Below are positions 34,184 to 64,000 of a stretch of DNA of 64,000 nt, in pieces. Both the position numbers and the translations under genes were made by a program. The notes below the pieces were generated by a model. The model saw only the letters and a list, made by a program, of their open reading frames with translations. It was not told the DNA's origin and ran no database searches. Each line of letters starts with the position of its first letter. The first letter of the stretch is position 1. This DNA comes from Acidobacteriota bacterium (lineage in GTDB: Bacteria > Acidobacteriota > Thermoanaerobaculia > Multivoradales > UBA5704): positions 10,021-74,020 of the forward strand of contig JBDTZG010000024.1 in NCBI GenBank assembly GCA_040005235.1. Reading direction: 5' to 3'.

Positions 34184-34321
34184 CTTGCTCCTCTGCGGTC
34201 TGCCGCGGGAGATTGTATGCCCTCTCCCGGTCGGGTCTCTTTCAGGCTACATCTCGGAATGGAAGCCTGGCTCCGAGAAGCCTTGACATGCAGGCCGCCG
34301 TGGCTACATTGTAGGTCCGCC

Positions 34322-35168: not shown

Positions 35169-35672
35169 ATGTCGGCTATTATCGAGCGCGAGGACGAGCT
35201 TCCTCTCTCTGAGAGGCTGGGTACCTTGGGCGTGGTGCATCTCCGGGCGATCGCTGCGGTTGCCGGCTATACGGTGTCCGTACCCGAGTCTGACTACGAC
35301 AGCGTCGACCTGATCGTGAAATCCAGGAGGGGCAGGAGGTCTCAGTTGGAATTCCAGGTGAAATGCACTACGCAGATCATTCCCTCCGGCGAGAGCATCA
35401 GCTTCGAGCTGCCCAGGAAAAACTATGACGACCTGCGAGCCGACACGATTGCGCCCCGAGTGCTCTTCGTGGTTCTCGTTCCAAAAGATACCGGAGCATG
35501 GCTACAGCAAAACGAACGTCGAATGCATCTGCGCCACTGTGGGTATTGGTTCTCGCTTCGTGGTTTCGCTCAACGACCTAACTCGACTTCCGTGACCGTG
35601 CAGATTCCTCGCGGCAACCTGTTGACGCCCGCAGCGCTTCAAGCACTGATGGCGTGGGGGGCCATTCAATGA
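35169..35672 (+). CDS. DUF4365-like (restriction-endonuclease-fold) protein; first gene of the candidate SIR2 operon
   Basis: 167 aa; D-x-D...ELQVK-like core (DYDSVDLIVKS, LEFQVKCTT) recalled as DUF4365/Mrr-like. GC lower than background. Stop overlaps the next ATG (ATGA). Confidence 0.5.
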   Translation: MSAIIEREDELPLSERLGTLGVVHLRAIAAVAGYTVSVPESDYDSVDLIVKSRRGRRSQLEFQVKCTTQIIPSGESISFELPRKNYDDLRADTIAPRVLFVVLVPKDTGAWLQQNERRMHLRHCGYWFSLRGFAQRPNSTSVTVQIPRGNLLTPAALQALMAWGAIQ

Positions 35673-36865: not shown

Positions 36866-36905
36866 CTGGTTAACTGCCGGACTTCGCTCGCCTGAGATCA
36901 GCGTC

Positions 36906-38270
36906 ATGAGCATTAATCCTCCCTCTCGCGAAGCTTTACTTGGTAACTTGGCTGATGCGGCACTGTTCGGCTCCTTTGGATTATTTGTAGGTACTGGGCT
37001 TTCACGTGCCCTCACCAAAGGCACGGCTCTTTCCTTCAAAGACTTACTGGTTTCTGTCTCCCGTCAGCTCGGCGTCGACTTGGACTTCGAGGACGTCGAT
37101 ATTGTTTGCGGAAAATCCTACCCACAGCTGGCGGAGGAGATCGCCCAGCTTCTCTCGCAGAGTAAGAACTGCTCATATTCTGAGGCGACTCTTGGTCTTA
37201 AGCGCGCAATCTGCCGCGCTTGCGACCTACAGGCGGACGCCAGTCTAACGACGCGTTACCGAGAAGCAATGGAGCTGATTCGGGTACAGTGGGTAATTAC
37301 CACCAATTATGATTTTATCTTAGAGGACTTGATTCCTAATTCCGTGTCGCTGCTGCCTAATGAACTACTAATTCCCAGGGTGGATTTCGTACCCATCTAC
37401 CATTTTCATGGTCACGTTCGTTCTGCCGCAAGTATTGTCGTCACGGATTCAGACTACATCCGCCTTCTCGCACCGACAGAGTACCGCCAGCTAAAGCTGA
37501 ATCTCTTAATGGCAGAGTCGAGCACTCTTATGCTGGGATACAGCCTTGGCGATATCAATGTTAAGACCGCCTTGGAGTGGTCCCGTGCCTTTGGAGCTGA
37601 GTGGGGACTGCGGGCGGAGGCGCATCAGTCACTTGTTGTACAGGCACTATATAAACCAGGAGCAACTCGTGAAACCGAGCCCTATTTTGGCCTGAATGGA
37701 GAGGTCATTATTGAAGTCGGAGACCTTTCGGTGATTTTGGGTGAAGTTTCAAAGGCCATCGAGACACGAAGGCTTGAATACACGGATCAAAAAGGGATGC
37801 TTGCTGATTGGATTAACGTGATTCCGGCCGGAAACCTGGCAGATGACGACGACCTTAGGATTGCTTTTCTGGATCTTCTTAGCCGGCTTCCGAGGCTTTA
37901 CGACTTGCCAGCGGTAATCCGGTACCTCGGCGCTGTATTGGATCCAATCTGGGAAAGGGCGCGCGCTGACTGCGGCTGGAGTCACTATGATCGATTCCTC
38001 TGTGTTCTGCTTGATGTTTTTAGAACCCTCCCGACGCGCCAGATTCACCCATCTCTGCTTTCTTACCTTGGAGATCAGCTCGATTATTTGTCCTGGTACA
38101 TAGACTCGGAAGGTAGAACGACACTTGGGACGTCTTTCGCTGCCTCACGTACTTGGCTGGGCAGAAAAGAAGAGATCCCCAAAGAGACTTGGAAAGCCTT
38201 AGTGGACTTTGCGACATATCGATCGCGCTACAGGCTGCTCAATCTTCTATCAGATCCAAGGGAGAGTTAG
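36906..38270 (+). CDS. SIR2-like (SIR2_2) domain protein with a roughly 250-aa C-terminal domain of unknown function
   Basis: Gly-rich FVGTGLS, a VITTNYDFILE motif and HFHGH catalytic-His context typical of defence-associated SIR2 NADases. GC about 48-50 percent versus about 68 percent background. Confidence 0.65.
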   Translation: MSINPPSREALLGNLADAALFGSFGLFVGTGLSRALTKGTALSFKDLLVSVSRQLGVDLDFEDVDIVCGKSYPQLAEEIAQLLSQSKNCSYSEATLGLKRAICRACDLQADASLTTRYREAMELIRVQWVITTNYDFILEDLIPNSVSLLPNELLIPRVDFVPIYHFHGHVRSAASIVVTDSDYIRLLAPTEYRQLKLNLLMAESSTLMLGYSLGDINVKTALEWSRAFGAEWGLRAEAHQSLVVQALYKPGATRETEPYFGLNGEVIIEVGDLSVILGEVSKAIETRRLEYTDQKGMLADWINVIPAGNLADDDDLRIAFLDLLSRLPRLYDLPAVIRYLGAVLDPIWERARADCGWSHYDRFLCVLLDVFRTLPTRQIHPSLLSYLGDQLDYLSWYIDSEGRTTLGTSFAASRTWLGRKEEIPKETWKALVDFATYRSRYRLLNLLSDPRES

Positions 38271-51575: not shown

Positions 51576-51787
51576 GCTCGTTCTCTCCTCTAAAGCGGCT
51601 CGGTAGGCAGGCGAGCTTACCGGTCCCGGCCGGAGGTCTACCTTTCGGCTCTGGTGGCCGCTTTTTGAGGATACGCCGGTTTGGGGGGAAAAGTTGCGGC
51701 CGGCACGTTGCGAACGTCGCGCTCAACACCTTGCCCCTGGCCGCCTCCCCCGCTACGCTTGGCTCGCAAATCTTCTCGGGAGGATCC

Positions 51788-54700
51788 ATGCGCCGCACGA
51801 TCGTCTGTTTTTTCGCGCTCGCCACTCTGCTCTCGCTCCCATCGCTCGGCGCAAGTGCCGGAATCGATCCCGCCTTGCTCGCGGGACTCAAGGCGCGATC
51901 GATCGGTCCGGCGGCGATGAGCGGCCGGATCGCCGCGATCGATTCGGACCCACGCAATCCCTCGGTGATCTGGATCGGTTCCGCCACCGGCGGCGTCTGG
52001 AAATCCGAAAGCGCCGGCCTCACCTGGGAGCCGGTTTTCGACGATCAGCCGGTCGCCTCGATTGGCGCGGTGGCGATCGATCCGACGAACTCCGCGGTGG
52101 TCTGGGTGGGTACCGGCGAGGGCAACCCACGCAACAGCGTCTCGATCGGCGAAGGGCTGTTCAAAACCCTCGACAGCGGCAAGACCTGGAAGCGGATGGG
52201 GCTTGAGAAGACGGAGCACATCCATCGGATCGCGATCGACCCGCGCAACCCCCAAACCGCCTACGTGGCGGCCCTCGGCAAGATTTGGGGCGAGAACCCC
52301 GAGCGTGGCGTCTACAAGACGACCGACGGCGGCGCCACATGGCGGCGCGTGCTCTACGTCGACGAGCGCACCGGCGCCGCGGACCTGGTGATGGACCCGA
52401 GCAACCCGAACAAGCTGTACGCGGCGATGTGGGACTACCGGCGCTGGCCGTACAAATTTCGCTCCGGCGGCCCGGGCTCGGGGCTCTACGTGAGCAACGA
52501 CGGCGGCGAAAACTGGAAGCGGCTGACCGAGGACGACGGCCTGCCGAAAGGCGAGCTGGGCCGGATCGGTCTTGCGATCGCGCCCTCGAACCCGAAAATC
52601 GTCTACGCGCTGGTCGAGGCGAAGAAGCCGGCCCTGCTCCGATCGGACGACGGGGGCCTGACCTGGGATGCGGTCAACAGCGATCCGGACATCAACGAGC
52701 GGCCCTTCTATTTCGCCGACATCCGCGTCGATTCGGCCGATCCGAACCGCCTCTATCGGCTGGAGGTGTCGCTCGACGTCTCGACCGACGCGGGCAAGAC
52801 CTGGAAGACCTTGGCGAGCTCAAGCGCGGCGCATCCCGATCATCATGCGCTCTGGGTCGATCCGCTCGATCCGAACCACCTGATCGACGGCAACGACGGA
52901 GGCGTGTTCACCACTCGCGACCATGGGGACACCTGGTCGTTCGCGGGGGGCCTGCCGCTCTCTCAGCTCTACCACATAAGGTACGACAACGACCTGCCGT
53001 ACCACGTCTACGGCGGCTTGCAGGACAACGGCTCGTGGCGCGGCCCCTCCTCCGTCTGGGAGGGTGGCGATATCCGCAACCTGCATTGGCAGGAGGTCTG
53101 CTTCGGCGACGGTTTCGATACCGCCCCGGATCCGCGCGATTCCTCAAAAGGGTACGCGATGAGCCAAGGGGGCGCGCTGATTCGCTGGGATCTGAACACC
53201 GGCGAGCGCAAATCGATCCAACCGGTGCGCGAAAAGGATGGCCCTGAGCTGCGCTTCAACTGGAACTCCGCCCTCGGCCTCGATCCGTTCGACCCTGACA
53301 CGATCTATTACGGCAGCCAGTTCGTCCACAAATCGGTCGACCGAGGCGAGACCTGGACGGTGATCAGCCCCGATCTCACCACCAACCGCGCCGAGTGGCA
53401 GCCGAAGGAAACCGGCGGCGTGACCCAGGACGTGACGGGCGCCGAGAATTACACGACGCTGCTCGCCATCGAACCGAGCCCCAAGGCGAAGGACCTGCTC
53501 TGGGTGGGTTCGGACGACGGTCGCTTGCAGATCACGCGGAACGGCGGCAAGGATTGGACGAGTGTCGAAGGCCACGTCCCCGGCGTCCCGGCGAACACGT
53601 GGATTCCGCACATCCACGTTTCGACCTACGACCCGGCGACGGCGTTCGTGGTGTTCGACGACCACCGGCGCGCGAATTACGCCACTTACGTCTACCGGAC
53701 CGACGACTACGGCAAGACCTGGAAGAGCCTCGCGACGCCGGACCTTCGCGGCTACGCCCTCGCGATCACCCAAGATCCTGTCACCCCGAATCTGCTGTTC
53801 CTGGGCACCGAATTCGGCCTCTGGTTCTCGCTCGATGGCGGCGGCAAGTGGTATCCCTTCCGGCATGGCCTGCCTACCGTCTCGGTGATGGACCTCGCGA
53901 TCCAGCCCCGCGATCGCGACCTGCTGATCGCCACCCATGGCCGCGGCATCTACATCGTGGACGACATCGAATCGCTGCGAGAGCTGACCGCGGCGACGCT
54001 CGCCGAGCCGCTCCATCTGTTTCCGATCGCCGACGCGCAGCAGTTTTGGGCCTCTCGCTCGACCGGACCGCGGTTCCCGGGGGGCAATGACTACAAGGGA
54101 AAGAACAGGCCCTACGGCGCTGCGCTGACGTTCGTGGTCAACAGTCCCGACCTGCCTCATCCCGACGCGGCGATCGAGCGCGAGCGAAAGGAGGCCAAGA
54201 GAAAGGCCGATGTCGCAACTCCTGAGGCGCAGAAGCCGGGCGGCGGGAACACCCCGGGCACCGAGGGCGACAAGAAGACGAAGGTGCAGATTCAGGTCAG
54301 CAACGCCGCGGGAGAGCGGGTTCGCTCGTTCGAGCAGAGAGTCACGCAGGGGGTCAACCGGGTCGCCTGGGATCTCCGCGGCGACCCCTTCAAAGAGCCG
54401 CCGACCAAGAAACCGCCCTCACCCTTCCGCTCCGGCGGGCCGCAGGTCGTCCCAGGCACCTACACGGTCAAGATCACCTATGGCGACAAGTCCGCAGAAG
54501 GCCCCGTTCGCGTGGTGGGCGATCCGCGATTCCACCTGTCGGAGGCCGATCGGGCGGCAAACGACGCCGCGATGCACCGCGCCGGAGCGCTCAAAGAGCG
54601 CGTCTCCCTCGCCGTCGAACGGATCGTCCGGACGAAATCCGACCTCAAAACGATCCTCGATCGGGTCAACCGGCGCGACGACGAGCGCCGAAGGACCGAC

Positions 54701-55039
54701 GGAACGACCGAAAAATCGTCGGAGGTCAAGGCCCTGGAGAAGGCGGCAAAAGATCTCCGCCAAAAGTTGGAAGGCGTCGAGCGGAAGCTCTGGAAGTCCG
54801 ACGAGATCGTCGGCCGCCCCAAAGGCGACGACCTGGCCTCGGAGCTTGACGATCTACTCTCCCGACTCGGCAGCTCCTGGGACGCCCCGAACGCCACGCT
54901 GCTCATGGGGATCGAAGAGGAGGAGGAAAAAGCCGGCCCGATCTTCGCGGAACTGGACGACCTGCTCACGAAGGACGTCGCGGCCTTCCGCTCGATGGTT
55001 CCGGCGGGGGAACTGGAGTTGTTGGGTGGAGGGCGGTAA
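51788..55039 (+). CDS. secreted BNR/Asp-box repeat protein, paralogue of 47551-50679
   Basis: GGGAGG RBS before the ATG at 51788; signal peptide; Asp-box repeats (SESAGLTW, TLDSGKTW, TTDGGATW, SNDGGENW and others); 1083 aa. Confidence 0.75.
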   Translation: MRRTIVCFFALATLLSLPSLGASAGIDPALLAGLKARSIGPAAMSGRIAAIDSDPRNPSVIWIGSATGGVWKSESAGLTWEPVFDDQPVASIGAVAIDPTNSAVVWVGTGEGNPRNSVSIGEGLFKTLDSGKTWKRMGLEKTEHIHRIAIDPRNPQTAYVAALGKIWGENPERGVYKTTDGGATWRRVLYVDERTGAADLVMDPSNPNKLYAAMWDYRRWPYKFRSGGPGSGLYVSNDGGENWKRLTEDDGLPKGELGRIGLAIAPSNPKIVYALVEAKKPALLRSDDGGLTWDAVNSDPDINERPFYFADIRVDSADPNRLYRLEVSLDVSTDAGKTWKTLASSSAAHPDHHALWVDPLDPNHLIDGNDGGVFTTRDHGDTWSFAGGLPLSQLYHIRYDNDLPYHVYGGLQDNGSWRGPSSVWEGGDIRNLHWQEVCFGDGFDTAPDPRDSSKGYAMSQGGALIRWDLNTGERKSIQPVREKDGPELRFNWNSALGLDPFDPDTIYYGSQFVHKSVDRGETWTVISPDLTTNRAEWQPKETGGVTQDVTGAENYTTLLAIEPSPKAKDLLWVGSDDGRLQITRNGGKDWTSVEGHVPGVPANTWIPHIHVSTYDPATAFVVFDDHRRANYATYVYRTDDYGKTWKSLATPDLRGYALAITQDPVTPNLLFLGTEFGLWFSLDGGGKWYPFRHGLPTVSVMDLAIQPRDRDLLIATHGRGIYIVDDIESLRELTAATLAEPLHLFPIADAQQFWASRSTGPRFPGGNDYKGKNRPYGAALTFVVNSPDLPHPDAAIERERKEAKRKADVATPEAQKPGGGNTPGTEGDKKTKVQIQVSNAAGERVRSFEQRVTQGVNRVAWDLRGDPFKEPPTKKPPSPFRSGGPQVVPGTYTVKITYGDKSAEGPVRVVGDPRFHLSEADRAANDAAMHRAGALKERVSLAVERIVRTKSDLKTILDRVNRRDDERRRTDGTTEKSSEVKALEKAAKDLRQKLEGVERKLWKSDEIVGRPKGDDLASELDDLLSRLGSSWDAPNATLLMGIEEEEEKAGPIFAELDDLLTKDVAAFRSMVPAGELELLGGGR

Positions 55040-55191
55040 CGGCAGGGGAAGCTCACCGAACTCGTTCGGGAGGCCCCTTTCAGCCCACCACGGGGTACTT
55101 TTCCCTCCCCCAGGATCCGCCCGCCCGACAAGGAATAGCCGTACCTGAGCCCGCATAGCCGCCGCAGCCGATGAAAAGCGAGGAGGTGCGG

Positions 55192-55863
55192 TTATTTGCG
55201 AGTGGTACCGCGATTCTCCTCGCGGGTTGAATCGATAATCTGCATTGCGGCAGTGGTCAAGGCACCTCGGCTGAGTGTTCCGTCAAGTCTCTTGACGTTG
55301 GAGGCTATCGACGCCAGTGCCTCATAACGACTCCGAACCTCTCCAAAAAACTCGGACCCTTTTAATTCAATTACATCTCGGGCTCGCTGCCTTAATCGCT
55401 CCTCGCAGACACCTACCGGGGTATCAATCCACAAGATCAGGTCAGCAATCTCAACCGGCGTCGTCACAAAGTCAAAAACAAGCGCCAGGCGGTGGTCCAG
55501 CGCCGGTCCATAGGCTAGATTACCAAGATAAGATCGATCAACTAGAATCAGATCAAATTTCTTAAGCCTCGGTGAGATAACAATCCTGTTCGACCGCCTG
55601 CTTGCGACAGCCCACAGAAGCTCTCTCTCAATATCGTCAAGGTCGCAATTTGGACACTTACATACCCTGTCCAGGATCTCTGAAACAGTTAGTGTTCCGC
55701 CAGATAGCGTACTCGCGTAGTTATCCAAATCGCTACAAAACTCCTTTGTCGCCAAGACATTCAAATCAACTCTATAGGCAGAGTTTAGCGAATCGACCAA
55801 CGTCGTTTTTCCGCACCCATCTATTCCGTCTATCTTAACGACAACAGCCCTTGAGTTATCCAT
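55192..55863 (-). CDS. thymidylate-kinase-like (dNMP kinase family) P-loop kinase
   Basis: P-loop KIDGIDGCGKTT, DRSYLGNLAYG (the Tmk DR[YF]..S..AY motif) and a lid-like region; low GC (about 45-50 percent). Confidence 0.65.
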   Translation of the reverse strand: MDNSRAVVVKIDGIDGCGKTTLVDSLNSAYRVDLNVLATKEFCSDLDNYASTLSGGTLTVSEILDRVCKCPNCDLDDIERELLWAVASRRSNRIVISPRLKKFDLILVDRSYLGNLAYGPALDHRLALVFDFVTTPVEIADLILWIDTPVGVCEERLRQRARDVIELKGSEFFGEVRSRYEALASIASNVKRLDGTLSRGALTTAAMQIIDSTREENRGTTRK

Positions 55864-55879
55864 CCTCGTGGTTACCCGC

Positions 55880-56557
55880 TTAGCTTTCAGGCACCGGGGG
55901 AGTGAAGTCGAGCTCGTACTGTCCGATCTCCGGAATTTCTTGCAGCTCCCTTGGTATCATATGGCGAAACTTTTTAGCTTTTGTCGCGTAAAGTTGCCGA
56001 ATATTAGGATTACTGGTATCTATAACAAGCGGCTCGGTGTTCACAACTATTCCGGCGCCAGATACACCACTGATCTTATCCGGATTATTAGTCATCAGGC
56101 GAACCGCTTCAACGCCCTTCTTCTTCAGGAAATCTCCGATTCGAGAGAAATCTCGCCCCTCGGGGGCAACACCAATCTGCATGCGGGAGTCATAGGTATC
56201 AATGCCTTGTGTTTCTAGGTCTGTAGCTTTGACTTTAGCTGAAAGGCCCGCTCCCCGACCATCAATTCTGAGATATAGTAGTATACCATGTTTCTCAGCT
56301 TTAAGCCTACCCAGAGCCATCTCTAATTGTTGAGCGCAATCGCACAACTCACTGCCAAATATTTCTCCAAATACGCATTCGGAGTGGATCCGCACCAACG
56401 GCTCCAATTGACTGAACGGTGCTCCAAAATATACCGCTAGATCGCCATCTACAGCTTCAGTTAGCGACACTGATTCGACGGTAATATTCCCCCACTTTTT
56501 CGTCTTGAACGAAGCCTGCGAATGCAGAAAAGTCCTCAGGTCCATGACCGTTTCCAT
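55880..56557 (-). CDS. GTP cyclohydrolase II (RibA) homologue outside a riboflavin operon
   Basis: RIHSECVFGEIFGSELCDCAQQLEMAL (zinc-ligand Cys triad), GILLYLRIDGRGAGL, and GIDTYD...RDF...VRLMTNNPDK all align by eye with E. coli RibA. Confidence 0.75.
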   Translation of the reverse strand: METVMDLRTFLHSQASFKTKKWGNITVESVSLTEAVDGDLAVYFGAPFSQLEPLVRIHSECVFGEIFGSELCDCAQQLEMALGRLKAEKHGILLYLRIDGRGAGLSAKVKATDLETQGIDTYDSRMQIGVAPEGRDFSRIGDFLKKKGVEAVRLMTNNPDKISGVSGAGIVVNTEPLVIDTSNPNIRQLYATKAKKFRHMIPRELQEIPEIGQYELDFTPPVPES

Positions 56558-56559
56558 CC

Positions 56560-57918
56560 TTAATCATCAGGTCCAGCTTGCCTGGGAACAAACTCCTCGA
56601 TAATCTGTTCTAGTAGAGAATCTCTGTTGATTTCAGTGACACTTATCAGTCGGCTGCGAATATGATGGTGGATGTATCCAAGAAACGAGTGGCCCTTCGC
56701 TGCAACGATCCCGAGAATTGAGAGGGAGGTATCTTCCATTGCAATTCGCATAAGGCGCTGAAACTCAGGGTTCTGTAATTGTATCGGGCCAATCTCATCC
56801 ACGATGAGTAAAGCTCGGCGATGAGCGAGTCCCTTGTCAATTGCCGGCAGTACCAATTCTTTCATGGTCGCGCTGTTAAGCTCATACGTGCCACTCTCTG
56901 TTTTGAGAGCTAGCTGGCCTATATGCTGACCATCGACAGTAACTGTTTCAAAACCGATGCGCTCGCTGCCGTTTCGAATCTCACGCGTAAAGAACCCAAC
57001 GACCTCGAACCACGACGATCTATTTCGGATTTCGCAAACAGCTTTCTCAAGTAGGGTGCTTTTGCCTACACCAGGCTCGCCCGTTAAAAACAGGCACTTT
57101 GAGCTTAAGCGCCAAATATTTTCGACCTGTTTAAGGTAAAGGTCGTAAACGGTGCGCGAATCGTAGGCGTTTAGAGCGAAATCTAGTTTGTCGTCAAATG
57201 TTACTTGGAAACCTTGGAGACGTACCAGCGCCTCGCGATCCTTGAGACTAATGTGCCGAGGATCTCTTATGACGACTGTAATATCCACCGGGTACGGAAA
57301 GAACCGGACCTCGATGTTTGAAGCGAAGTCTCCTGCTTCGTTAGCAAGAATCTCAATCATTCTGAGCCCACTTTGCATTCGGTCGATCATTAGATCGGGC
57401 GTGATGAGATTTGCATTTCGGAATGCCATGAAGCCCGCAATATAATTGCTGTCGGCAACGGCAACCCACCGAAGGCGACCTCCCCTTCGCACAAAGGCCA
57501 GGAGTTCCTGTCGGCAAGTTTCCGCAATTAGCCGTCCAGTTTCTTGAACCAGAACGAGTTCTTTGTCAGCCTTGATGATCAAGTCGCGCTCGCTGGACTT
57601 TCTGGAAAAGAAATCGTCAGCCACCGTCTTATCTAGAAGACGCCTTACCACTGCTTCCACGTCACGCAGTTGAGTAAAAATCTGGTCACGAGCCGCTCGG
57701 TCTTTCAAAGTACCAAATGCAACGATTCCTAACGCAGTAGCGGTAGCTCCAACGGCGTATTCGGGCTTCCCACCAAAAGTTGCGAACCACGCAGCCAGGA
57801 CTGAAAGGCCGATGCTAAGGATCGTGTCGAAATTTGTCCAGATTAACAGTAGAAATCGCACTATTCCTCGATGAGGCGCCTTGTTTTTCGGAGAATCAGG
57901 GTTCATGGACCGGAACAC
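56560..57918 (-). CDS. membrane-anchored protein with a C-terminal THEP1-like nucleoside-triphosphatase domain
   Basis: Two N-terminal TM helices and a middle domain of unknown function. Walker A LTGEPGVGKSTL and Walker B LLIVDEIGPIQL resemble the NTPase_1/THEP1 family. Confidence 0.6.
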   Translation of the reverse strand: MFRSMNPDSPKNKAPHRGIVRFLLLIWTNFDTILSIGLSVLAAWFATFGGKPEYAVGATATALGIVAFGTLKDRAARDQIFTQLRDVEAVVRRLLDKTVADDFFSRKSSERDLIIKADKELVLVQETGRLIAETCRQELLAFVRRGGRLRWVAVADSNYIAGFMAFRNANLITPDLMIDRMQSGLRMIEILANEAGDFASNIEVRFFPYPVDITVVIRDPRHISLKDREALVRLQGFQVTFDDKLDFALNAYDSRTVYDLYLKQVENIWRLSSKCLFLTGEPGVGKSTLLEKAVCEIRNRSSWFEVVGFFTREIRNGSERIGFETVTVDGQHIGQLALKTESGTYELNSATMKELVLPAIDKGLAHRRALLIVDEIGPIQLQNPEFQRLMRIAMEDTSLSILGIVAAKGHSFLGYIHHHIRSRLISVTEINRDSLLEQIIEEFVPRQAGPDD

Positions 57919-58179
57919 CTCTTGCGGTTGCTACCAAGGCTCAGTCCGAAGCTTGGTCTTCGTAGATAGTGTACGCTATCTCTTCCGGAGAGCTCCCATC
58001 GCGCGTGGAGGTTCCTGAAGACGAACAGGCAGTCGATATCTTCCCTGTCGTTGTAGACCTGAGCGGCAATCCAGAGGTCGCTTCCATGGGTGAAGGGATC
58101 GATTGTGATGAGTTTTCACAGAGAAGAGCGGCGCGCAAAGTGCCGGCTTCGGCGGCCGCCAACGGGATCGGTCTTCCTT

Positions 58180-58510
58180 CTGGAGGGCGTGACGATTCTC
58201 CGGCAAGATCTGCTGTCCTTCTGGAAGGATCGCCTCTCTCAAGGGGTCACCGGTTTTAGGCCAATTTCACTGGTCCCTCCCAGGGGATCACTGATTTTCG
58301 GCCAAAATCACCGTTCCTTCCCGAGGGATCGCTCTTCCTTCCCAAGGGATCACTGATTTTGAGCCAAAATCACCGTTCCTTCCCGAGGGAGCACCCTTCC
58401 CTCGGTCGGGATCACTGATTTTCGGCCAAAATCGCTCTTCCCTCCCGCGGGATCGGTGATTTTGGCGCAGGATCGCCATTCCCTCAGGAAGGAACGGTGA
58501 TTTTGGGGGC
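58180..58510. repeat. tandem array of about 5-6 roughly 62-bp units, each with an imperfect palindrome GGGATCACTGATTTTCGGCCAAAATCACCG; degenerate at both ends
   Basis: Three near-identical copies of GGGATCACTGATTTT(C/G)(G/A)GCCAAAATCACCGTTCCTTCCCGAGGG, with degraded copies either side. Confidence 0.8.
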
Positions 58511-58513
58511 AAC

Positions 58514-59218
58514 CTAGCGAACGCGGCCCCCGCGCAGGCGTTCAATCAGCGCGCCCAGCGCGGCACCGATCACAACCATGGCGACGATCGGCCCGGTGTG
58601 GGACGGCAGGACGTGGCTTGGGAAGGTGAAGGGGCAGATCAGGCGCCAGGAGGAGTCGGCGAGCAGTCCAGCGGCGAGGCCGGCGAGGGCTCCGGCGGTG
58701 GCCGGTCGGAACGAGAGGCCGCGGCTCAGCAGCCAAAGGCCGATCAACAGGAGCGGCGAGGCGATCAGGAATTCGTAGTACAGGCAGGCGTTTAGCTCGA
58801 CGGGCGCCAGTCCGGGCGGGGCGGGAAAGGGGCTTTGGCGGAAGGCGAGCGCCAGGCCGGCGAGGTGAAATCCGAAGGCGCCGAGGGCGCAGGCCCAGAG
58901 GGTGGTGCGCGGTAGGCTGCTCCCGGGAGTCGATTCGCGTAGCGCGCTGACCGCGACCATCAAAGCCAGAGACAACTGGGCGAACGAAAGTCCCCAGGCG
59001 AGGACCGCCCCCAGCTGCGGCAAGTCGGGCCGGAAGCCGTACTTGCTCCAGAACGTCGCGAGGGCCAGGAGCGTCCAAGGCACCAGCAGAATCGAGCGCT
59101 GAAACGGCGGCGCGAGCGGCTTGACGGGTTTCAGGTCGGCGTAGATCGCTCGGCGCAAGGCTTCAGGCAGAGCGGCGTCGTTTTCGTTGGTCATTTTTGG
59201 ATCGCTCATGGTGATCAT
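58514..59218 (-). CDS. NrsF/DUF1109-like multi-TM anti-sigma factor
   Basis: Start at MITMSDPKM (59218); six predicted TM helices; immediately downstream of an ECF sigma gene. The ORF extension to 59566 overlaps that sigma gene. Confidence 0.55.
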   Translation of the reverse strand: MITMSDPKMTNENDAALPEALRRAIYADLKPVKPLAPPFQRSILLVPWTLLALATFWSKYGFRPDLPQLGAVLAWGLSFAQLSLALMVAVSALRESTPGSSLPRTTLWACALGAFGFHLAGLALAFRQSPFPAPPGLAPVELNACLYYEFLIASPLLLIGLWLLSRGLSFRPATAGALAGLAAGLLADSSWRLICPFTFPSHVLPSHTGPIVAMVVIGAALGALIERLRGGRVR

Positions 59219-59226
59219 CGGGGCGG

Positions 59227-59796
59227 TCACCCCGCCTCGCCGGCCCTCCCCGGGCCGAGCAGAATTTCTCGCAACATCACCATTCCACGATGCGCCCGGA
59301 GCTTGGCGGCCCCGCCGCGAATTCCGAGCGTCGCTCCGATCTCTTGGAACGACAGGCCCACCACGTGGTGCAGAACCAGCGCCTCGCGGCGGTCTTCCGG
59401 CACGCCCCGCAACGCCTTCGAGAGTGCCTGGCGATCGGCCAACCCCTCGACCTCCGGCGGCACCGGCAGCTCGGGGGCCTCCCCTTCGGGGAAGAGATCG
59501 AACCCCTTGCGCGACCTCGTGCGGCGGTCCATCAGGAACGCGTGGCGCGCGATCGCGAAAGCCCACGGCCGAACCGGCCGATCCCGCTGGTAGGTGTGAC
59601 GCGCTCGGTGCAGCTGGAGGAACGTCTCCTGCAACAGGTCGTCCGCGACGTTGGTGCTCCGGGTCAGTGAAATGAGGTACCTCCGCAGGGGTGGCGAGAG
59701 GGCTTGATAAAGATCTTCGAACGCTCGCCCGTCGCCCTGCTGGTACCGGACCATGAGGGCGGAGAGCTCGTCGGCCGAACCTTCGGCTGGTTCCAC
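59227..59796 (-). CDS. RNA polymerase ECF sigma factor
   Basis: Region 2 MVRYQQGDGRAFEDLYQALSPPLRRYLISLTRSTNVADDLLQETFLQLHR and region 4 LSFQEIGATLGIRGGAAKLRAHRGM; start uncertain (GTG 59796 or ATG 59754). Confidence 0.8.
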   Translation of the reverse strand: MEPAEGSADELSALMVRYQQGDGRAFEDLYQALSPPLRRYLISLTRSTNVADDLLQETFLQLHRARHTYQRDRPVRPWAFAIARHAFLMDRRTRSRKGFDLFPEGEAPELPVPPEVEGLADRQALSKALRGVPEDRREALVLHHVVGLSFQEIGATLGIRGGAAKLRAHRGMVMLREILLGPGRAGEAG

Positions 59797-59995
59797 TCCA
59801 CTCCCTCCTATGCCGCGGTCGGGGCGGCGGTTACAACGCTTCGTGGGGCGCGGCGGTCGGAAAGGCAGGCGCCGGGTGCGGCGTTCCGAAACAGATGGTG
59901 TTCGAGTGCGCAATCTATCGCAGGGAGAGCAGGATGGCGAGCAGGGGCCGGCCGGTTCCCTGTACACTTGGAGCCTGCCGAGGAGGTCCTTTTTG

Positions 59996-60286
59996 ATGTT
60001 AGAAAACGTGACGATCGATACGTTCGCCGGCCACAAAGGCTCCGCTTTTCGGATGGTCGCGGCCGAGAACCTCGCCTTGGAGGTCACGCTCGCGCAAGTG
60101 ACGGCGCTCGGCGATTCGGGGGGGCGCCAGGCCTTTTCACTGGAATTCCTGGCGCCGCTCGGCGGCCCGATCTTCCCCCAAAGTATTTATCGCTTCGAGC
60201 ATGAGGCGCTCGGCGCGCTCGACCTTTTCGCGGTGCCGCTCGGCCCGAAGGGTGGAGGTTTTCGCTACGAGGTGATCTTCACTTGA
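59996..60286 (+). CDS. small hypothetical protein (96 aa)
   Basis: GAGGAGG RBS upstream of ATG 59996; the upstream part of the ORF overlaps the sigma gene antisense. Confidence 0.4.
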   Translation: MLENVTIDTFAGHKGSAFRMVAAENLALEVTLAQVTALGDSGGRQAFSLEFLAPLGGPIFPQSIYRFEHEALGALDLFAVPLGPKGGGFRYEVIFT

Positions 60287-60803
60287 TCTCGGCGTAAGCG
60301 GGCAAAGACGCCGCCGGGCCGGGCGTGGCGCCGGGCGGTAGGTATTCCATCAGGAAGTAGACGCTGTTCTCGCCGACCTTCTTGAACCCCAAACGCTCAT
60401 AAAGGCGAAGCGCGGGATTCAGCTGCTCGACGTGGATCGTTAGCGGCAGGCAGGCCGCCGTGGCCTCTCCGATCAGGCGATTGAGGTATGCCGTTCCAAT
60501 CCCCCGGTTTCGATGGGCGGCGGCGATCGCGATGTCCATCAAGCGGATTTCCTTCAGGCGGCGATGGATGTAGAGGCGGCCCGCCCGGTCGCCATTGGCC
60601 AGGATCAGCGACAGCTCGGCCCCGGGATAATTCTCGCGGTAGAAGACGTCTTGCGCGTGGAACTGCATCGCGCAGAACCCGAACTTCTGCTCGGGGGTCC
60701 AGTCGGTCACCGAAAGCTCTTGCTCCCGCGTGCCGGCATAGAGCTCAAGCAGGAACGGTCGATCCTCTTCAGTGACCGGCCGCAACGAGAGATCGGAGGC
60801 CAT
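60279..60803 (-). CDS. GNAT family N-acetyltransferase
   Basis: Acetyl-CoA-binding motif AHRNRGIGTAYL. Confidence 0.75.
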   Translation of the reverse strand: MASDLSLRPVTEEDRPFLLELYAGTREQELSVTDWTPEQKFGFCAMQFHAQDVFYRENYPGAELSLILANGDRAGRLYIHRRLKEIRLMDIAIAAAHRNRGIGTAYLNRLIGEATAACLPLTIHVEQLNPALRLYERLGFKKVGENSVYFLMEYLPPGATPGPAASLPAYAEIK

Positions 60804-60825
60804 GCTCCCTTTCCGCTCGCGGGCG

Positions 60826-61584
60826 TTACAACGCTTCGGGCGCGAGCTCGACCGCCATCAAGATCGAGGCATAGCGTACCGCAGCGCGCGGGCCGGCGAT
60901 CGCGGAAAGCCCGACGTCCCGCGCCCACGTTCCCGGTGTCAGGCCGAGGAGGTACAGGCCGCGGCGGAGCCGCGGCATGCCGGACTCTCGATCGATCGTG
61001 AATCGCGTGGTGAAACGGGAAACCAGCCCTGCGGTATCTCTGACTGCCAGACTGAGCTCCAGTGGCGACTCCTGGGCGTGCTCGAATTCGAAGCGGACCG
61101 GCGGGCTGGGGTTCCATCCGCCGCGACGGCGGAGGCTCCAGGCCGCGAAGCGGTTCGGCCGGTCGTCGATCGGATCGAACGAAGGAAAGATCACGTCCAG
61201 GTCCGCGGCGAGAGGCAGCAGCTCGCGCTGCTTCGCTTCAAACGCCGTCGGCGGGTAGAGACCCCGGATTGCAATGCGGAGCGGCCGGCCATAAAGCTCG
61301 CCGTCGCCCGCCCACAGAGAATCGGCCGGTACGACCCGAAGGCCGGTTTCGGCGTCGGCCTCAAGGCCGGGGCGGCGCACAGCTCGCGGCAGACGCTTCA
61401 GGCTGCGGAGAGTTTCGCTGCCGTCGACGTAGCCGACGGAGAGCGGCGCGGTTTTACCCTCCTGCGCCCACGCGAACGTAGGCAGCGACGCGCCGAGAAT
61501 TCCAACCGAAGAGAGCGTTAAAAACTCGCGACGGCTCCACTCCTGCACCGACAAGGAACGAACGACAGAGATCGAAGAAGACAT
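60826..61584 (-). CDS. Tat-signal secreted hypothetical protein
   Basis: SRREFLTLSSVGILGASLPTFAWA twin-arginine signal. Confidence 0.55.
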   Translation of the reverse strand: MSSSISVVRSLSVQEWSRREFLTLSSVGILGASLPTFAWAQEGKTAPLSVGYVDGSETLRSLKRLPRAVRRPGLEADAETGLRVVPADSLWAGDGELYGRPLRIAIRGLYPPTAFEAKQRELLPLAADLDVIFPSFDPIDDRPNRFAAWSLRRRGGWNPSPPVRFEFEHAQESPLELSLAVRDTAGLVSRFTTRFTIDRESGMPRLRRGLYLLGLTPGTWARDVGLSAIAGPRAAVRYASILMAVELAPEAL

Positions 61585-61801
61585 GAGATGCCTCGCAGAG
61601 GTTCAGGAGCGAGAAGAGCCGTCCCTGAGCCGGAAGTTGCGCCGGACAATGCGGGCACGCTAGCACACCCCGGGCGCGGAAGGCGCACGGAATCAACACT
61701 TTAGACAGCCGGTACATGTGCGATCGAGCGAAGTAGAGAGCGGGCGAACGGCTCCCCTCGCGGGAGGAGCACGCTCTACTGCAGAAGCCTCTAAAGAGGC
61801 T

Positions 61802-62323
61802 TCAAGTGCGCGGGGGGTAGACGCCCTGAAGGGCGATGTTGAAGTAGAACGTCAGGTACGGCTGCAGGTTGTTGTGCGGCTGGTCGCCGCCTGCGGGTGG
61901 AAGTCCCTGATCCGACATCGGGACCAGCGGTGCACCTGCGGGAGGCACATAACCGTTGCCGGCTGCCGGCCTCGCGAAAGAGTTGCTGGCGGCGCTGGTT
62001 CGGTTGCCAGGGGCTCCCAGTGACATCAGGGGATGACTATGTGAAGGGATTTCACTTTCTAGCAGGCTGACAGTTTCGCTGCCGCCAGTCTCGCCGAGGT
62101 CATGCAGCGAAAGGCCAGGACCTTGCCCCGGGTGCATCGGCGCTCTTCCTTGAAGGTCGGGCAAGGCGAAGTTGGACTTTCCATCACCCCCGTACGTCGT
62201 TCCCAGGAGCGAGAAGAGGGCGGTGTTCTGAGACAATGGCAACAGCTGTCCGTCGCACCACGCCCAACCCTTCGGCGCGAAGTTGAACGGGAAAATGCGG
62301 ATTTCTGCCACAAACGGGTCCAT
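61802..62323 (-). CDS. phage tail collar domain protein (MdpB-like), copy 1
   Basis: FVAEIRIFPFNFAPKGWAWCDGQLLPLSQNTALFSLLGTTYGGDG...FALPDLQGR is a canonical tail-collar domain. Confidence 0.8.
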   Translation of the reverse strand: MDPFVAEIRIFPFNFAPKGWAWCDGQLLPLSQNTALFSLLGTTYGGDGKSNFALPDLQGRAPMHPGQGPGLSLHDLGETGGSETVSLLESEIPSHSHPLMSLGAPGNRTSAASNSFARPAAGNGYVPPAGAPLVPMSDQGLPPAGGDQPHNNLQPYLTFYFNIALQGVYPPRT

Positions 62324-62331
62324 GTCTCCTC

Positions 62332-62835
62332 CTAGGTCGGGCTCGGGAAGATCCCGAACAAGGAAATGATGAAGTCAACGCAAAGATAAGGCTGGAAGTT
62401 CGTATGAGGCTGACTTCCACCTGTCGATCCGATCGACTGCGGTGCCATCGCCGCGGCAGGGGCTCCTGACTGATAGAGGGTGGCTGCCGACGATTCAGCA
62501 GGAAGGTTGTTGTTCGCATTCGGATCGTTTCCCACCGAGTTCGAGCACAGAAGAGGATGGCTGTGGGCTGTGATCTGGTTTACCGTGAGAGTGATCTCTT
62601 CCGCGCCTCCGGTCTCCGCCAGGATAAAGCCGCTGCCCTGGTGAGCTGGGATCCGGCCCCGCAGGTCGGGTAGCGCGAAGGTGCTCTGACCGTCGCCGCC
62701 GTAGGTCGTTCCGATCAGTTGGAACAAGGTCTCGTTCTCGGAGATCGGCAGAAGCTGCCCTTCACAAAACATCCATCCGGCCGGGGCAAAGTTCCCGGCG
62801 AACATTCGAATCTCTCCGACGTATGGTTGGGCCAT
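62332..62835 (-). CDS. phage tail collar domain protein (MdpB-like), copy 2
   Basis: YVGEIRMFAGNFAPAGWMFCEGQLLPISENETLFQLIGTTYGGDG...FALPDLRGR. Confidence 0.8.
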   Translation of the reverse strand: MAQPYVGEIRMFAGNFAPAGWMFCEGQLLPISENETLFQLIGTTYGGDGQSTFALPDLRGRIPAHQGSGFILAETGGAEEITLTVNQITAHSHPLLCSNSVGNDPNANNNLPAESSAATLYQSGAPAAAMAPQSIGSTGGSQPHTNFQPYLCVDFIISLFGIFPSPT

Positions 62836-62844
62836 GCCGGTCTC

Positions 62845-63348
62845 CTAATTCGGACTCGGGAAGATGCCCTGGAGGGCAATCGAAAAGTTCAGGATCAAGA
62901 AAGGCTGCATGTTCAGGTGCGCTTGGGACCCGCCGACATTCGCGACGGTTCCACCGATCATGGCCGCCAAGTTCGTGGGCGCGAGGTATGGATTCGCCGG
63001 TGCCTGGCGACTCAAGAGATTCGCCGTTGGGATGGGCTGTGACGCGTCCGTTGACGTGGCGTTGAGCGTGTGCGTATGCGTCGGAAGCTCGGCGATGCTG
63101 AGCGTATGGGCCTGTTCGCCGCCCCGCTCGCCGAGGGTATGCCCGCTGCCTACGTGAATCGGAGTGCGACCGCGAAGGTCGGGCAGCCCGAAGTTGACAC
63201 GACCGTCTCCCCCGAAAGTCGTCCCCAGGAGCGAGAAGAGCCCCTGGTTCTGGTTGATCGGGAGCAGCTGCCCATCACACAGCGCCCAGCCTTTGGGTGG
63301 AAAAACGAAGCTCATGATCCTTATTTCGCTCAAAAACGGTTCTGCCAT
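62845..63348 (-). CDS. phage tail collar domain protein (MdpB-like), copy 3
   Basis: FLSEIRIMSFVFPPKGWALCDGQLLPINQNQGLFSLLGTTFGGDG...FGLPDLRGR. Confidence 0.8.
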   Translation of the reverse strand: MAEPFLSEIRIMSFVFPPKGWALCDGQLLPINQNQGLFSLLGTTFGGDGRVNFGLPDLRGRTPIHVGSGHTLGERGGEQAHTLSIAELPTHTHTLNATSTDASQPIPTANLLSRQAPANPYLAPTNLAAMIGGTVANVGGSQAHLNMQPFLILNFSIALQGIFPSPN

Positions 63349-63416
63349 TTCTACCTCCCCTGGTTAGCATGTCCAGTCCGCCACAGTTCATTCATCTCTC
63401 CATTGAGGGCGATGCA

Positions 63417-64000
63417 CTACGGCGGCGTAGTGATCGGCCCGGCAATCAACGCCACCCCCGGATCAGCGAACATCGTGCCGGTGTTGTGGCTCTGCATCTC
63501 AGCTGTGGCTGTACCGCTGGCGGGCGCGTTATCGATCAGTTCGGCCGTTGCTCCGCCGAGCTCTTCGTAGACGAACCACGCCGCGTTGCCATCGAAGGTC
63601 GGGTAGTCGTACGAGCCGTTTGGACCGACCGTCGAGGGCACTGTATTGGTTCGGATGTCCGCGCGGACCCTGGCCGGACTGCCTTGATTGTCCGCGGCGA
63701 GGAAAATTGCAGCAAGCGGGAAAGACGCTGCCGGCGCATTGTTTTGCGCGTCATTGTTGGAGACCGTCACGTCGTTCGTCGAGACGATTCCCAAGCCCGT
63801 CGTCGTAGAGCCGAGGAATTGCATGTCAACAGCTCGGCCACCTGGGGTCTGCCGGATCACGTTGCCATCGATCAGGAGAGTGGCCGTGGTTCTGCCTTGG
63901 ATCACCACCCGAACGCCGTTGCCGGTAGACGATCCCGAGCCGGCAACGCCGATGTTGCCGATCGTGTTGCCCTGAATCCTGCCCTTGATCGTGCCGCCTG
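63417..64000 (-). CDS. parallel beta-helix repeat protein, 5'-partial (continues beyond the window end)
   Basis: The reading frame stays open to 64000 upstream of the listed M (…GNTIGNIGVAGSGSSTGNGVRVVIQGRTTATLLIDGNVI); Gly/Thr/Asn-rich beta-helix-like repeats. Confidence 0.55.
   Translation of the reverse strand, partial: GGTIKGRIQGNTIGNIGVAGSGSSTGNGVRVVIQGRTTATLLIDGNVIRQTPGGRAVDMQFLGSTTTGLGIVSTNDVTVSNNDAQNNAPAASFPLAAIFLAADNQGSPARVRADIRTNTVPSTVGPNGSYDYPTFDGNAAWFVYEELGGATAELIDNAPASGTATAEMQSHNTGTMFADPGVALIAGPITTPP

What the first reader, a model, noticed from the sequence alone, without database searches (positions are those of the whole stretch)
58180..58510. About 62-bp tandem repeat array with internal palindromes at the boundary of the low-GC nucleotide island
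Three near-identical and several degenerate copies of GGGATCACTGATTTTCGGCCAAAATCACCGTTCCTTCCCGAGGG lie in the 596-bp gap between the island and an ECF sigma/anti-sigma pair. Each unit contains the imperfect palindrome TGATTTTCGGCCAAAATCA. This is not CRISPR-like, because the inter-repeat segments are themselves repeated and no cas genes are present. It could be an array of protein-binding sites, a REP/BIME-like element, or the attachment or terminal-repeat region of the inserted island.
Basis: seen in the sequence. Interest (0 to 1): 0.55.

Follow-up and report, generated by a model that had tools for sequence, protein, structure and literature searches.

The report
Mosaic palindromic repeat array at island edge
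A real, non-coding 343-bp array of alternating 41-bp and 21-bp repeat units sits at one end of a 3.45-kb foreign gene cassette in a soil Acidobacteriota genome, and arrays built to the same plan occur in other metagenomes, so it belongs to an undescribed repeat family whose function is still only inferred.

Summary
The array spans window 58164-58506. It has five 41-bp L units and four 21-bp S units. An L unit is an S-type unit plus a 20-bp insert carrying the 19-bp palindrome TGATTTTCGGCCAAAATCA. An inverted unit closes the array 7 nt after the nrsF stop codon.

Seven island-free alleles in relatives place the nrsF and BNR-gene stop codons only 21-28 bp apart. The window therefore carries a ~3.45-kb low-GC insert, and the array is its nrsF-proximal end. 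One degenerate unit lies at the far end.

The same array start follows nrsF in a much more distant MAG, L018. It is absent from a relative 92-96% identical to the window.

The units occur nowhere else in the window or in ~215 kb of fetched loci. Exact-pattern scans of genome, metagenome and viral collections gave only chance hits.

An exhaustive protein search with the spurious ORF over the array found five mis-called "proteins" that are translated arrays with the same 41/21 grammar. It is not CRISPR, not coding and not a known RNA family, and it is not a conserved part of the adjacent NTPase operon.

Best reading (confidence 0.4): a new BIME-like mosaic repeat family at an insertion hot spot. 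Rival: cis-acting ends of the mobile cassette.

The parts
58164..58506 (.). Whole mosaic array. On the + strand the order is S, degenerate L, truncated S (17 nt), degenerate L, L, S, L, S (irregular), L, then a 58-nt cap.
58284..58448 (.). Well-conserved core, L-S-L-S-L. L (41 nt) = GGGATC + ACTGATTTTCGGCCAAAATC + ACCGTTCCTTCCCGA. S (21 nt) = GGGATC + GCTCTTCCTTCCCAA.
   Evidence: nhmmer E 1e-13 to 2e-12 for the three L units
58292..58310 (.). Palindrome P1 (TGATTTTCGGCCAAAATCA). Further copies lie at 58354-58372 and 58416-58434.
   Evidence: as RNA the hairpin is weak (-2.9 kcal/mol on the + strand, -7.3 on the - strand, z -0.04 and -1.8)
58164..58283 (.). Decayed units on the NTPase-proximal side of the array.
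   Evidence: (families D2, D3)
58449..58506 (.). Cap: a 20-nt half-palindrome unit plus an inverted unit. The arm 58480-58506 is 96% complementary over 27 nt to 58302-58328 and to 58364-58390.
   Evidence: I3, I4; this pairing drives the strong whole-array fold (-159.5 kcal/mol, z -5.5)
55098..55117 (-). Solitary degenerate unit at the far end of the insert. GATCCTGGGGGAGGGAAAAG matches the array unit GATCCCGCGGGAGGGAAGAG at 17 of 20 positions.
   Evidence: 4 of 1000 shuffles score as well
55051..58504 (.). Accessory segment of about 3.45 kb (51% GC against 65-68% in the flanks) that is absent from seven relatives.
58505..58512 (-). TTGCCCCC directly after the nrsF stop. It also occurs in the empty-site spacer of L023, and an imperfect copy (TTCCCCT) lies at 55044-55050. 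This is a tentative target-site-duplication-like direct repeat.
   Evidence: post-hoc observation, not statistically supported
58514..59218 (-). nrsF, the anti-sigma gene (PF06532). Its last codons (RVR*) are shared only with the other array-bearing relative, L018.
56560..57906 (-). First island gene: a transmembrane segment, an unknown domain and a THEP1-like NTPase. It is followed by GTP cyclohydrolase II (55880-56557) and a thymidylate-kinase-like gene (55192-55863).
51665..55039 (+). Convergent BNR/sortilin-Vps10 gene. In island-free relatives its stop codon lies 21-28 bp from the nrsF stop.

Best explanation
The array is a cluster of a previously undescribed, lineage-restricted family of non-coding mosaic repeats found in Acidobacteriota-type genomes. 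It is built from two fixed-length modules. S is 21 bp with core GATCCC-NN-GGGAAGGA. L is 41 bp, an S-type unit plus the palindrome TGATTTTGG/CCAAAATCA.

In behaviour it resembles BIME/REP clusters. It occupies the spacer between two convergent stop codons, its presence or absence varies between relatives, its unit number and order change quickly, and related arrays occur in other genomes.

Shown: the array is real, it is accessory DNA, and it is the nrsF-proximal end of a 3.45-kb low-GC cassette whose far end carries one more degenerate unit.

Inferred: the units act as double-stranded DNA. The 21, 41 and 62-bp spacings equal 2, 4 and 6 helical turns, so the AT-rich palindromes lie on one face of the helix as a phased set of sites for a dimeric protein encoded elsewhere. 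The repeat cluster makes this gene-end spacer a recombination-prone landing pad where cassettes are gained, lost or exchanged.
For: - The array is far beyond chance.
- Seven empty alleles show it is part of the insert (L007-L010, L022-L024).
- A different insertion sits at the same spot in L019, and three relatives' contigs break right after nrsF (L016, L017, L018). This marks a hot spot.
- The same array start abuts nrsF in L018. Flanking identity there is only 66-78%, yet the first 42 nt of the array match at 37/42. A relative 92-96% identical to the window lacks it.
- Five mis-called proteins from ENA, JGI and NCBI contigs are translated arrays. They show the same frame-shifting L/S grammar and align without gaps over 53 aa (E 1.7e-8 to 8e-4).
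- Homologous NTPase + GTP-cyclohydrolase-II operons elsewhere have no such array, so it is not part of the gene module.
- The unit hairpins are weak as RNA, which favours a double-stranded DNA role.
- No Rfam family matches.
Against: - Defining REP/BIME features are not met. There is no GTAG or CGTC tag, the palindrome is AT-rich and weak, and the units are direct rather than alternating in orientation (sequence; definitions from PMC3733652).
- No second copy occurs in the 64-kb window or in ~215 kb of fetched loci, about 150 kb of which is from relatives.
- Exact-pattern scans of 596 Gb of genomes and of the metagenome set returned only chance hits.
- The genomic contexts of the five related arrays could not be fetched, so dispersal within one genome is unproven.
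- No binding protein or transposase has been identified.
Confidence: 0.4

Rival explanations
1. The array is the cis-acting terminal repeat region of the 3.45-kb cassette itself. On this reading the cassette is a non-autonomous mobile element, and its reiterated end sites are bound by a transposase or recombinase supplied in trans, as at the multi-site ends of Tn7 or Mu. The element would target the 3' end of nrsF.
For: - The array sits at the insert boundary, 7 nt after the nrsF stop.
- A unit-like sequence lies at the other end of the insert (4 of 1000 shuffles).
- The junction CCCC|AAAATCACCG is identical in two distant lineages, while close relatives are empty.
- The RVR* end of NrsF is shared only by the array-bearing alleles among those whose downstream DNA was fetched.
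- There is an imperfect TTGCCCCC/TTCCCCT direct repeat, and TCACCG lies near both ends in inverted orientation.
- L019 shows an insertion at the same site that displaced the nrsF 3' end.
Against: - No transposase or integrase was found in the insert or among about 40 window ORFs scanned.
- The far end has a single degenerate unit and no palindrome.
- The direct repeats are not statistically supported: 1842 of 2000 shuffles score as well against the window's nrsF end, and 157 of 2000 against L018's.
- At 343 bp and about 10 units, the array is much larger than known transposon ends (my own knowledge).
- No close NTPase homologue exists for the L018 lineage; the next best hit is 68% identical. 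This hints that the array can occur without this cargo.
- Identity to L023 dips on both flanks of the insert, which fits import by homologous recombination rather than de novo transposition.
Confidence: 0.25
2. The array is a neutral by-product. Replication slippage or unequal crossing-over amplified a short palindromic spacer sequence in non-coding DNA, and it has no function.
For: - Unit order and number differ between the window and L018.
- Copies decay progressively towards one side.
- No gene-linked conservation is seen.
Against: - The same 41/21 grammar and conserved core bases recur in five diverged arrays.
- The array start is as conserved between the window and L018 as the sigma and nrsF coding sequence (82-88%), against 66-78% for neighbouring genes.
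Confidence: 0.15
3. The array is the regulatory region of the island operon, either an operator array or tandem promoters upstream of the NTPase gene.
For: - It lies in the 607-bp gap 5' of the operon on the coding strand side.
- The palindromes have 7-9-bp half-sites typical of dimeric repressors.
Against: - The array ends 258 bp before the ATG.
- No sigma-70-like promoter was found in the gap.
- The conserved SigF-type TGTAACC promoter upstream of the sigma gene is absent from the array.
- The GGAAC motif is not conserved in the related arrays.
- Homologous operons lack any array.
- The island encodes no regulator.
Confidence: 0.1
4. The array is transcribed as a structured non-coding RNA. 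Candidates are an nrsF 3'UTR insulator or terminator, a purine-rich GGA-motif protein sponge, or a type III antitoxin-like repeat RNA.
For: - The whole minus-strand array folds well (-159.5 kcal/mol, z -5.5).
- It has the same orientation as both flanking operons.
- The sense strand carries many GGGAAGGA motifs.
Against: - The fold is driven by the single 27-nt inverted cap. The regular 62-nt repeat is not better than shuffles (z -0.5 and -1.0), and the P1 hairpin is weak.
- No Rfam hit beyond noise.
- No canonical terminator on the sense strand.
- Homologous NTPase modules lack arrays, which argues against a type III toxin-antitoxin system.
Confidence: 0.05

Closest known systems
BIME / REP clusters of Enterobacteria and Pseudomonas (bacterial interspersed mosaic elements)
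   Same: Non-coding mosaic of a few fixed-length motifs containing palindromes. Located between convergent gene ends, right after a stop codon. Variable unit number, presence/absence polymorphism between relatives, and related clusters elsewhere.
   Different: No GTAG or CGTC tag. The palindrome is AT-rich and thermodynamically weak. Units are in direct rather than alternating orientation. High copy number is not shown, and no RAYT was found (definitions from PMC3733652).
TIR repeat families associated with RAYT-like 'TIRYT' transposases in Acidobacteria (Di Nocera et al. 2013, PMC3733652)
   Same: Same phylum, with moderately abundant repeats that can occur as dimers or clusters. One unit (58243 GGGGTCAC) fits the reported GGGGWSAS motif, and the other units are one mismatch away.
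   Different: The 8-nt motif match is weak. No TIRYT gene is in the window.
Iteron and centromere arrays, e.g. F sopC with 12 x 43-bp repeats each holding a 7-bp inverted repeat (my own knowledge)
   Same: Tandem direct repeats of about 40-60 bp, each carrying a short inverted repeat, with spacing in whole helical turns.
   Different: No rep or par genes are adjacent. The location is chromosomal, between housekeeping-type genes.
Multi-site transposon ends (Tn7 TnsB sites, Mu att sites) and Tn7-like insertion just downstream of a conserved gene (my own knowledge)
   Same: Reiterated ~21-bp sites at the end of an inserted segment that begins a few bases after a gene's stop codon. The cargo looks like defence or nucleotide-metabolism genes.
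   Different: No tns or transposase genes, no clear terminal inverted repeats, no clean target-site duplication, and far more sites than known transposon ends.

Membership tests
REP/BIME | A 20-40-bp imperfect palindrome able to form a stable stem-loop | tested here: inconclusive
   A 19-bp palindrome is present in each L unit. As RNA it folds at only -2.9 and -7.3 kcal/mol, not better than shuffles (z -0.04 and -1.8).
REP/BIME | A GTAG or CGTC tetranucleotide tag at one end of the palindrome (PMC3733652) | tested here: not met
   None of GTAG, CTAC, CGTC or GACG occurs in 58243-58506 (sequence). Definition.
REP/BIME | High copy number, dispersed across intergenic regions of the genome | tested here: inconclusive
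   There are no other copies in the 64-kb window or in ~215 kb of fetched loci. The whole source genome was not available. Five related arrays exist in other contigs.
REP/BIME | Palindromic units alternate in orientation within a cluster | tested here: not met
   All L and S units are direct. Only the terminal cap is inverted, and S unit 58387-58407 is irregular.
REP/BIME | Associated RAYT or TIRYT (Y1/HUH) transposase | tested here: inconclusive
   None was found among about 40 window ORFs scanned with Pfam. The rest of the genome was not available.
CRISPR | Identical repeats separated by unique spacers of similar length, with cas genes nearby | tested here: not met
   The inter-repeat segments are themselves repeated. 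No Cas domains appeared in the Pfam scans.
Transposon with multi-site ends (Tn7/Mu-like) | A transposase gene inside the element, inverted terminal sites at both ends, and a short perfect target-site duplication | tested here: not met
   The three insert genes are an NTPase, GTP cyclohydrolase II and a thymidylate-kinase-like gene. The far end has one direct degenerate unit. Only an imperfect TTGCCCCC/TTCCCCT repeat is present.
Integrative element with att sites | An integrase gene, plus direct repeats at both ends that include the 3' end of the target gene | tested here: not met
   No integrase was found. The nrsF-3'-like stretch at the far end is not significant (1842 of 2000 and 157 of 2000 shuffles).
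Iteron / partition-site array | A tandem binding-site array adjacent to its rep or par gene | tested here: not met
   The array architecture is compatible, but no Rep, ParA or ParB domain is in the insert or its neighbours.
Type III toxin-antitoxin (ToxI-like repeat RNA) | A tandem repeat array conserved immediately upstream of the toxin gene across homologous loci | tested here: not met
   NTPase homologues in L011-L015 have no tandem repeats upstream.
Any Rfam RNA family | A covariance-model match at the gathering score | tested here: not met
   Only a tRNA elsewhere in the window passes. In the array there are only sub-threshold miRNA-precursor noise hits.

The most novel reading that the evidence does not exclude
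S/L arrays are the cis-acting signature of a new integrase-less cassette-exchange system in Acidobacteriota. On this reading, phased 21/41/62-bp repeat arrays placed just after conserved genes act as landing pads or ends. A trans-acting protein would use them to load, swap and remove small defence or nucleotide-metabolism cassettes such as the NTPase / GTP cyclohydrolase II / thymidylate-kinase-like operon.
Probability: 0.12. Interest if true: 0.75.

Novelty: new variant of a known kind. Interest (0 to 1): 0.38.

Why it matters
Repeat families of Acidobacteriota are almost unstudied. A mosaic array with a strict 41/21-bp grammar recurs across metagenomes and sits exactly at the edge of a horizontally acquired, possibly defence-related cassette. 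That gives a concrete handle on how accessory genes enter and leave gene-end hot spots in these uncultured soil bacteria. If the array is only a local BIME-like cluster, it is still a useful marker for assembly breaks and strain typing, but it is biologically ordinary.

Tried and rejected
- **Dam/GATC cluster.** Rejected. The array has 9 GATC sites, but GATC is frequent everywhere (10.8 per kb) and other 350-bp windows hold 12.
- **SigF-dependent promoters.** Rejected. The conserved TGTAACC promoter lies upstream of the sigma gene and nothing similar is in the array.
- **Generic ECF GGAAC-N18-TC promoters in L units.** Rejected, because GGAAC is not conserved in the related arrays.
- **Protein-coding repeat.** Rejected. 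There are stop codons in all frames, and 41 and 62 are not multiples of 3.
- **Conserved 5' element of the NTPase operon, or a type III antitoxin.** Rejected. Homologous operons lack it.
- **Plasmid or phage origin.** No blastn or tblastn match in the plasmid or phage collections, and no viral-contig hits.
- **13-nt match at 37728.** It lies inside a SIR2-like coding sequence and is a chance hit.
- **Word-index protein search with concatenated six-frame peptides.** Found nothing.
- **Whether the P0060 array also follows nrsF.** Could not be decided. The tblastn hits were dominated by compositional noise.

Full report
**Observation.** The repeat is real. Tandem Repeats Finder gives a period-62 array at 58274-58455 (2.9 copies, 82% matches, score 252), with period-41 rows on both sides. 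The repeat finder finds seven copies of a 22-nt unit from 58166 to 58492, and 27-nt inverted arms that are 96% complementary. The 19-nt palindrome and the 22-nt unit each occur several times here and nowhere else in the 64-kb window; shuffles gave zero matches. A Logan assembly of run SRR26386603 (L006) is 100% identical over window 56053-64000, array included.

**Anatomy.** Cutting at the GGGATC anchors resolves two modules.
- S is 21 nt: GGGATC + GCTCTTCCTTCCCAA.
- L is 41 nt. It is the same unit with a 20-nt insertion, ACTGATTTTCGGCCAAAATC, after GGGATC. The insertion holds the palindrome TGATTTT(C)GG/CCAAAATCA.

On the + strand the array reads as follows:

| Coordinates | Module |
|---|---|
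| 58164-58184 | S |
| 58185-58225 | L, degenerate |
| 58226-58242 | S, truncated to 17 nt |
| 58243-58283 | L, degenerate |
| 58284-58324 | L |
| 58325-58345 | S |
| 58346-58386 | L |
| 58387-58407 | S, irregular |
| 58408-58448 | L |
| 58449-58506 | 58-nt cap |

The last unit of the cap is inverted, which creates the 27-nt inverted repeats. The cap ends 7 nt from the nrsF stop codon (58514-58516 on the minus strand). The 62-bp period is therefore L+S. Spacings of 21, 41 and 62 bp correspond to 2, 4 and 6 helical turns. All six frames contain stop codons, and 41 and 62 are not multiples of three, so the array is not coding. Its GC content is 55.7%. The flanking genes are 65-68% GC and the island genes 48-49%.

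**Context.** On the minus strand the order is as follows:
- ECF sigma gene, 59227-59796.
- nrsF anti-sigma gene, 58514-59218.
- The array.
- 258 bp of unique sequence.
- An operon of a TM/unknown-domain/THEP1-like NTPase (56560-57906), GTP cyclohydrolase II (55880-56557) and a thymidylate-kinase-like gene (55192-55863).
- The stop codon of a convergent BNR/sortilin-like gene (51665-55039, + strand).

The source is an Acidobacteriota MAG.

**Island-free alleles.** NrsF homologues led to syntenic contigs. In L007, L008, L009, L010, L022, L023 and L024 the nrsF and BNR stop codons are only 21-28 bp apart. In blastn against the relatives, homology stops at window 58524-58533 on the nrsF side and resumes at 55032-55047 on the BNR side. 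The window therefore carries about 3.45 kb of extra DNA, and the array is its nrsF-proximal end.

L023 is 92-96% identical to the window on both sides yet lacks both island and array. Identity dips to 87-89% within nrsF and to 84-90% in the BNR 3' end next to the insert. That pattern looks like an imported recombination tract.

The site is a hot spot:
- L019 has a different 1.1-kb insertion that replaced the nrsF C-terminus and left the displaced nrsF 3' end downstream.
- Contigs L016, L017 and L018 end 1, 27 and 77 bp after nrsF.

**A second instance at the same site.** L018 (GCA_038248205.1) is a distant relative, with only 66-78% identity in neighbouring genes. It carries the same array start directly after its nrsF stop: TAG GCTGCCCGCCCCAAAATCACCGCTCCCTCCCGAGGGAAGAGCGATCC.... 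The first 42 nt match the window at 37/42, after which the module order differs, and the contig ends inside the array. Among the alleles whose downstream DNA I could fetch, only the window and L018 share the NrsF ending RVR*. P0048 has the same ending, but its 1,387-bp contig could not be fetched. The distribution is thus patchy with respect to relatedness, and the array start is as conserved as the adjacent coding sequence.

**The other end of the insert.** The 148-bp spacer at the far end is host-like at 65.5% GC. It contains one degenerate unit at 55098-55117, matching an array unit at 17 of 20 positions; 4 of 1000 shuffles score as well.

A stretch resembling the nrsF terminus (CGA GTT CGG TGA GCT TCC CC) lies next to the BNR stop but is not statistically supported (1842 of 2000 and 157 of 2000 shuffles). 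TTGCCCCC follows the nrsF stop both in the window and in the L023 empty site, and an imperfect TTCCCCT precedes the native GCCG-TTA at the far junction. This is compatible with a target-site duplication, but it is a post-hoc observation.

**Dispersal.**
- An nhmmer profile of the L unit, and fuzzy searches for the units, hit only this array and the L018 site in 280 kb of window plus fetched loci.
- An exact-pattern scan of 596 Gb of species-representative genomes gave five single hits in unrelated phyla, as expected by chance. The source genome is evidently not in that set.
- A second pattern, conserved between the window and L018, gave two chance hits inside coding sequences in the metagenome set. 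It gave none in viral contigs.
- blastn and tblastn against the plasmid and phage collections found nothing.

**A wider family.** I searched the spurious 85-aa ORF that runs across the array (58288-58545, minus strand) exhaustively against 1.84 billion representative proteins. Six hits came back. One of them, P0057, is an unrelated repeat protein.

The other five are evidently translated arrays. They are P0055, P0056, P0058, P0059 and P0060, from ENA, JGI and NCBI contigs of 576 bp to 34 kb.
- They contain runs of 7-aa repeats, which are 21-nt S units. An example is PRQGPAF x5 in P0059.
- Their longer blocks shift reading frame in the order expected for a 41-nt L unit.
- P0055 reads RIWPKIADPGAGTSDPSGGISEFAAKSLVPGQGPVIPRQGSTNLAQ. 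The window reads RFWPKISDPDRGKGAPSGRNGDFGSKSVIPWEGRAIPREGTVILAENQ.
- Segments from four of them (P0055, P0056, P0059, P0060) align with the window without gaps over 53 aa, or 159 nt.
- By tblastn, the clear (E < 1e-6) hits of P0055, P0056, P0058 and P0059 in the window all fall in and just around the array (about 58134-58622); P0060 hits the array plus compositional noise across the window.

The L/S grammar and the core bases (GATCCC, GGGAAGGA, GATTTTGG, AAAA) are therefore conserved in diverged arrays elsewhere. There is an ascertainment bias: only arrays that stay in frame can be found this way.

**What it is not.**
- *CRISPR.* The spacers are themselves repeated, and there are no cas genes.
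- *A known RNA family.* Rfam gives only miRNA-precursor noise caused by the long inverted repeat.
- *A conserved part of the NTPase module.* The NTPase + GTP cyclohydrolase II pair recurs next to GmrSD and RelA/SpoT genes (L014), with NUDIX (L011-L013) and inside a prophage (L015). None of these loci has tandem repeats upstream.
- *A SigF promoter array.* The conserved TGTAACC promoter lies upstream of the sigma gene and is absent from the array.
- *A sigma-70 promoter or canonical terminator.* No sigma-70-like promoter, and no terminator on the sense strand, was found in the gap.
- *A special GATC cluster.* GATC enrichment is a genome-wide trait.
- *A site next to a mobility gene.* No integrase, transposase or RAYT was found among about 40 window ORFs.

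**RNA or DNA.** The whole minus-strand array folds strongly (-159.5 kcal/mol, z -5.5), but this is due to the single inverted cap. A regular 62-nt repeat is no better than shuffles (z -0.5 and -1.0), and the P1 hairpin is weak (-2.9 and -7.3 kcal/mol). The weak AT-rich palindromes, the strict module lengths and the spacing in whole helical turns fit reiterated binding sites on double-stranded DNA better than RNA hairpins. This step is inference.

**Interpretation.** The best-supported reading (confidence about 0.4) is a new, lineage-restricted family of mosaic repeat clusters that behaves like BIME/REP clusters. It occupies the spacer after a stop codon between convergent genes, varies in unit content, is present or absent among relatives, and has relatives in other genomes. 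At this locus it forms the edge of an accessory cassette at a recombination hot spot.

It is not a member of the REP/BIME family as defined. There is no GTAG or CGTC tag, the palindrome is weak, the units are direct, and high copy number is unproven (definitions from PMC3733652).

The main rival (about 0.25) is that the array is the cis-acting end of the cassette as a non-autonomous mobile element targeting the nrsF 3' end. In its favour are the boundary position, the far-end unit, the identical junction in two distant lineages and the shared RVR* terminus. Against it are the lack of any transposase, the lack of clear terminal inverted repeats or target-site duplication, and the absence of a close NTPase homologue for the L018 lineage.

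Neutral slippage (0.15), an operon regulatory region (0.1) and a structured RNA (0.05) are less likely, for the reasons given under each rival.

**Verdict.** The result is a moderately interesting new variant of a known kind, mosaic extragenic repeats. It has a low-probability but testable link to integrase-less cassette exchange. Scanning the complete genomes and the contigs behind P0055-P0060 with an S/L-unit profile would decide between the two main readings.

Noticed in passing
window 55192-57906 (- strand); L011, L014, L015: The operon encodes a TM/unknown-domain/THEP1-like NTPase, GTP cyclohydrolase II and a thymidylate-kinase-like protein. The NTPase + GTP-cyclohydrolase-II pair recurs beside GmrSD and RelA/SpoT genes (L014), with NUDIX and DUF6602 (L011-L013), and inside a prophage with dCTP deaminase and ThyA (L015). 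It is a candidate nucleotide-directed defence or counter-defence module. PADLOC gives only weak hits.
   Followed up: partly
window 35169-38270 (+ strand): A second low-GC patch carries DUF4365, a PDC-M02B protein (E 1e-91) and a SIR2-like PDC-S25 protein (E 3e-20). It is probably a defence system.
   Followed up: partly
L019:3270-4446: A different 1.1-kb insertion (a 246-aa protein with no Pfam hit) sits at the same nrsF 3' end. It gives NrsF a new C-terminus and leaves the displaced original nrsF 3' end downstream at 4370-4446.
   Followed up: partly
window 61802-63348 (- strand): Three tandem phage-tail-collar-domain genes are hypervariable between close relatives: 61-75% nucleotide identity to L023, against a 92-96% baseline.
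   Followed up: no
window 1161-1751: A SocA/Panacea antitoxin-domain protein lies in a low-GC kilobase (1001-2000, 53% GC).
   Followed up: no
window 31456-31842: A 21-nt/63-nt tandem repeat (up to 6.5 copies at 91% matches) lies within ORFs listed on both strands. If it is coding, it would give a 7-aa repeat.
   Followed up: no
window 2552-2701: There are two short tandem repeats (20 nt x 2.5 and 18 nt x 2.4) near the first low-GC patch.
   Followed up: no
window 27301-28188 and 33362-34570: A Uma2-family putative restriction endonuclease, and a protein with a MazE-antitoxin-like domain.
   Followed up: no
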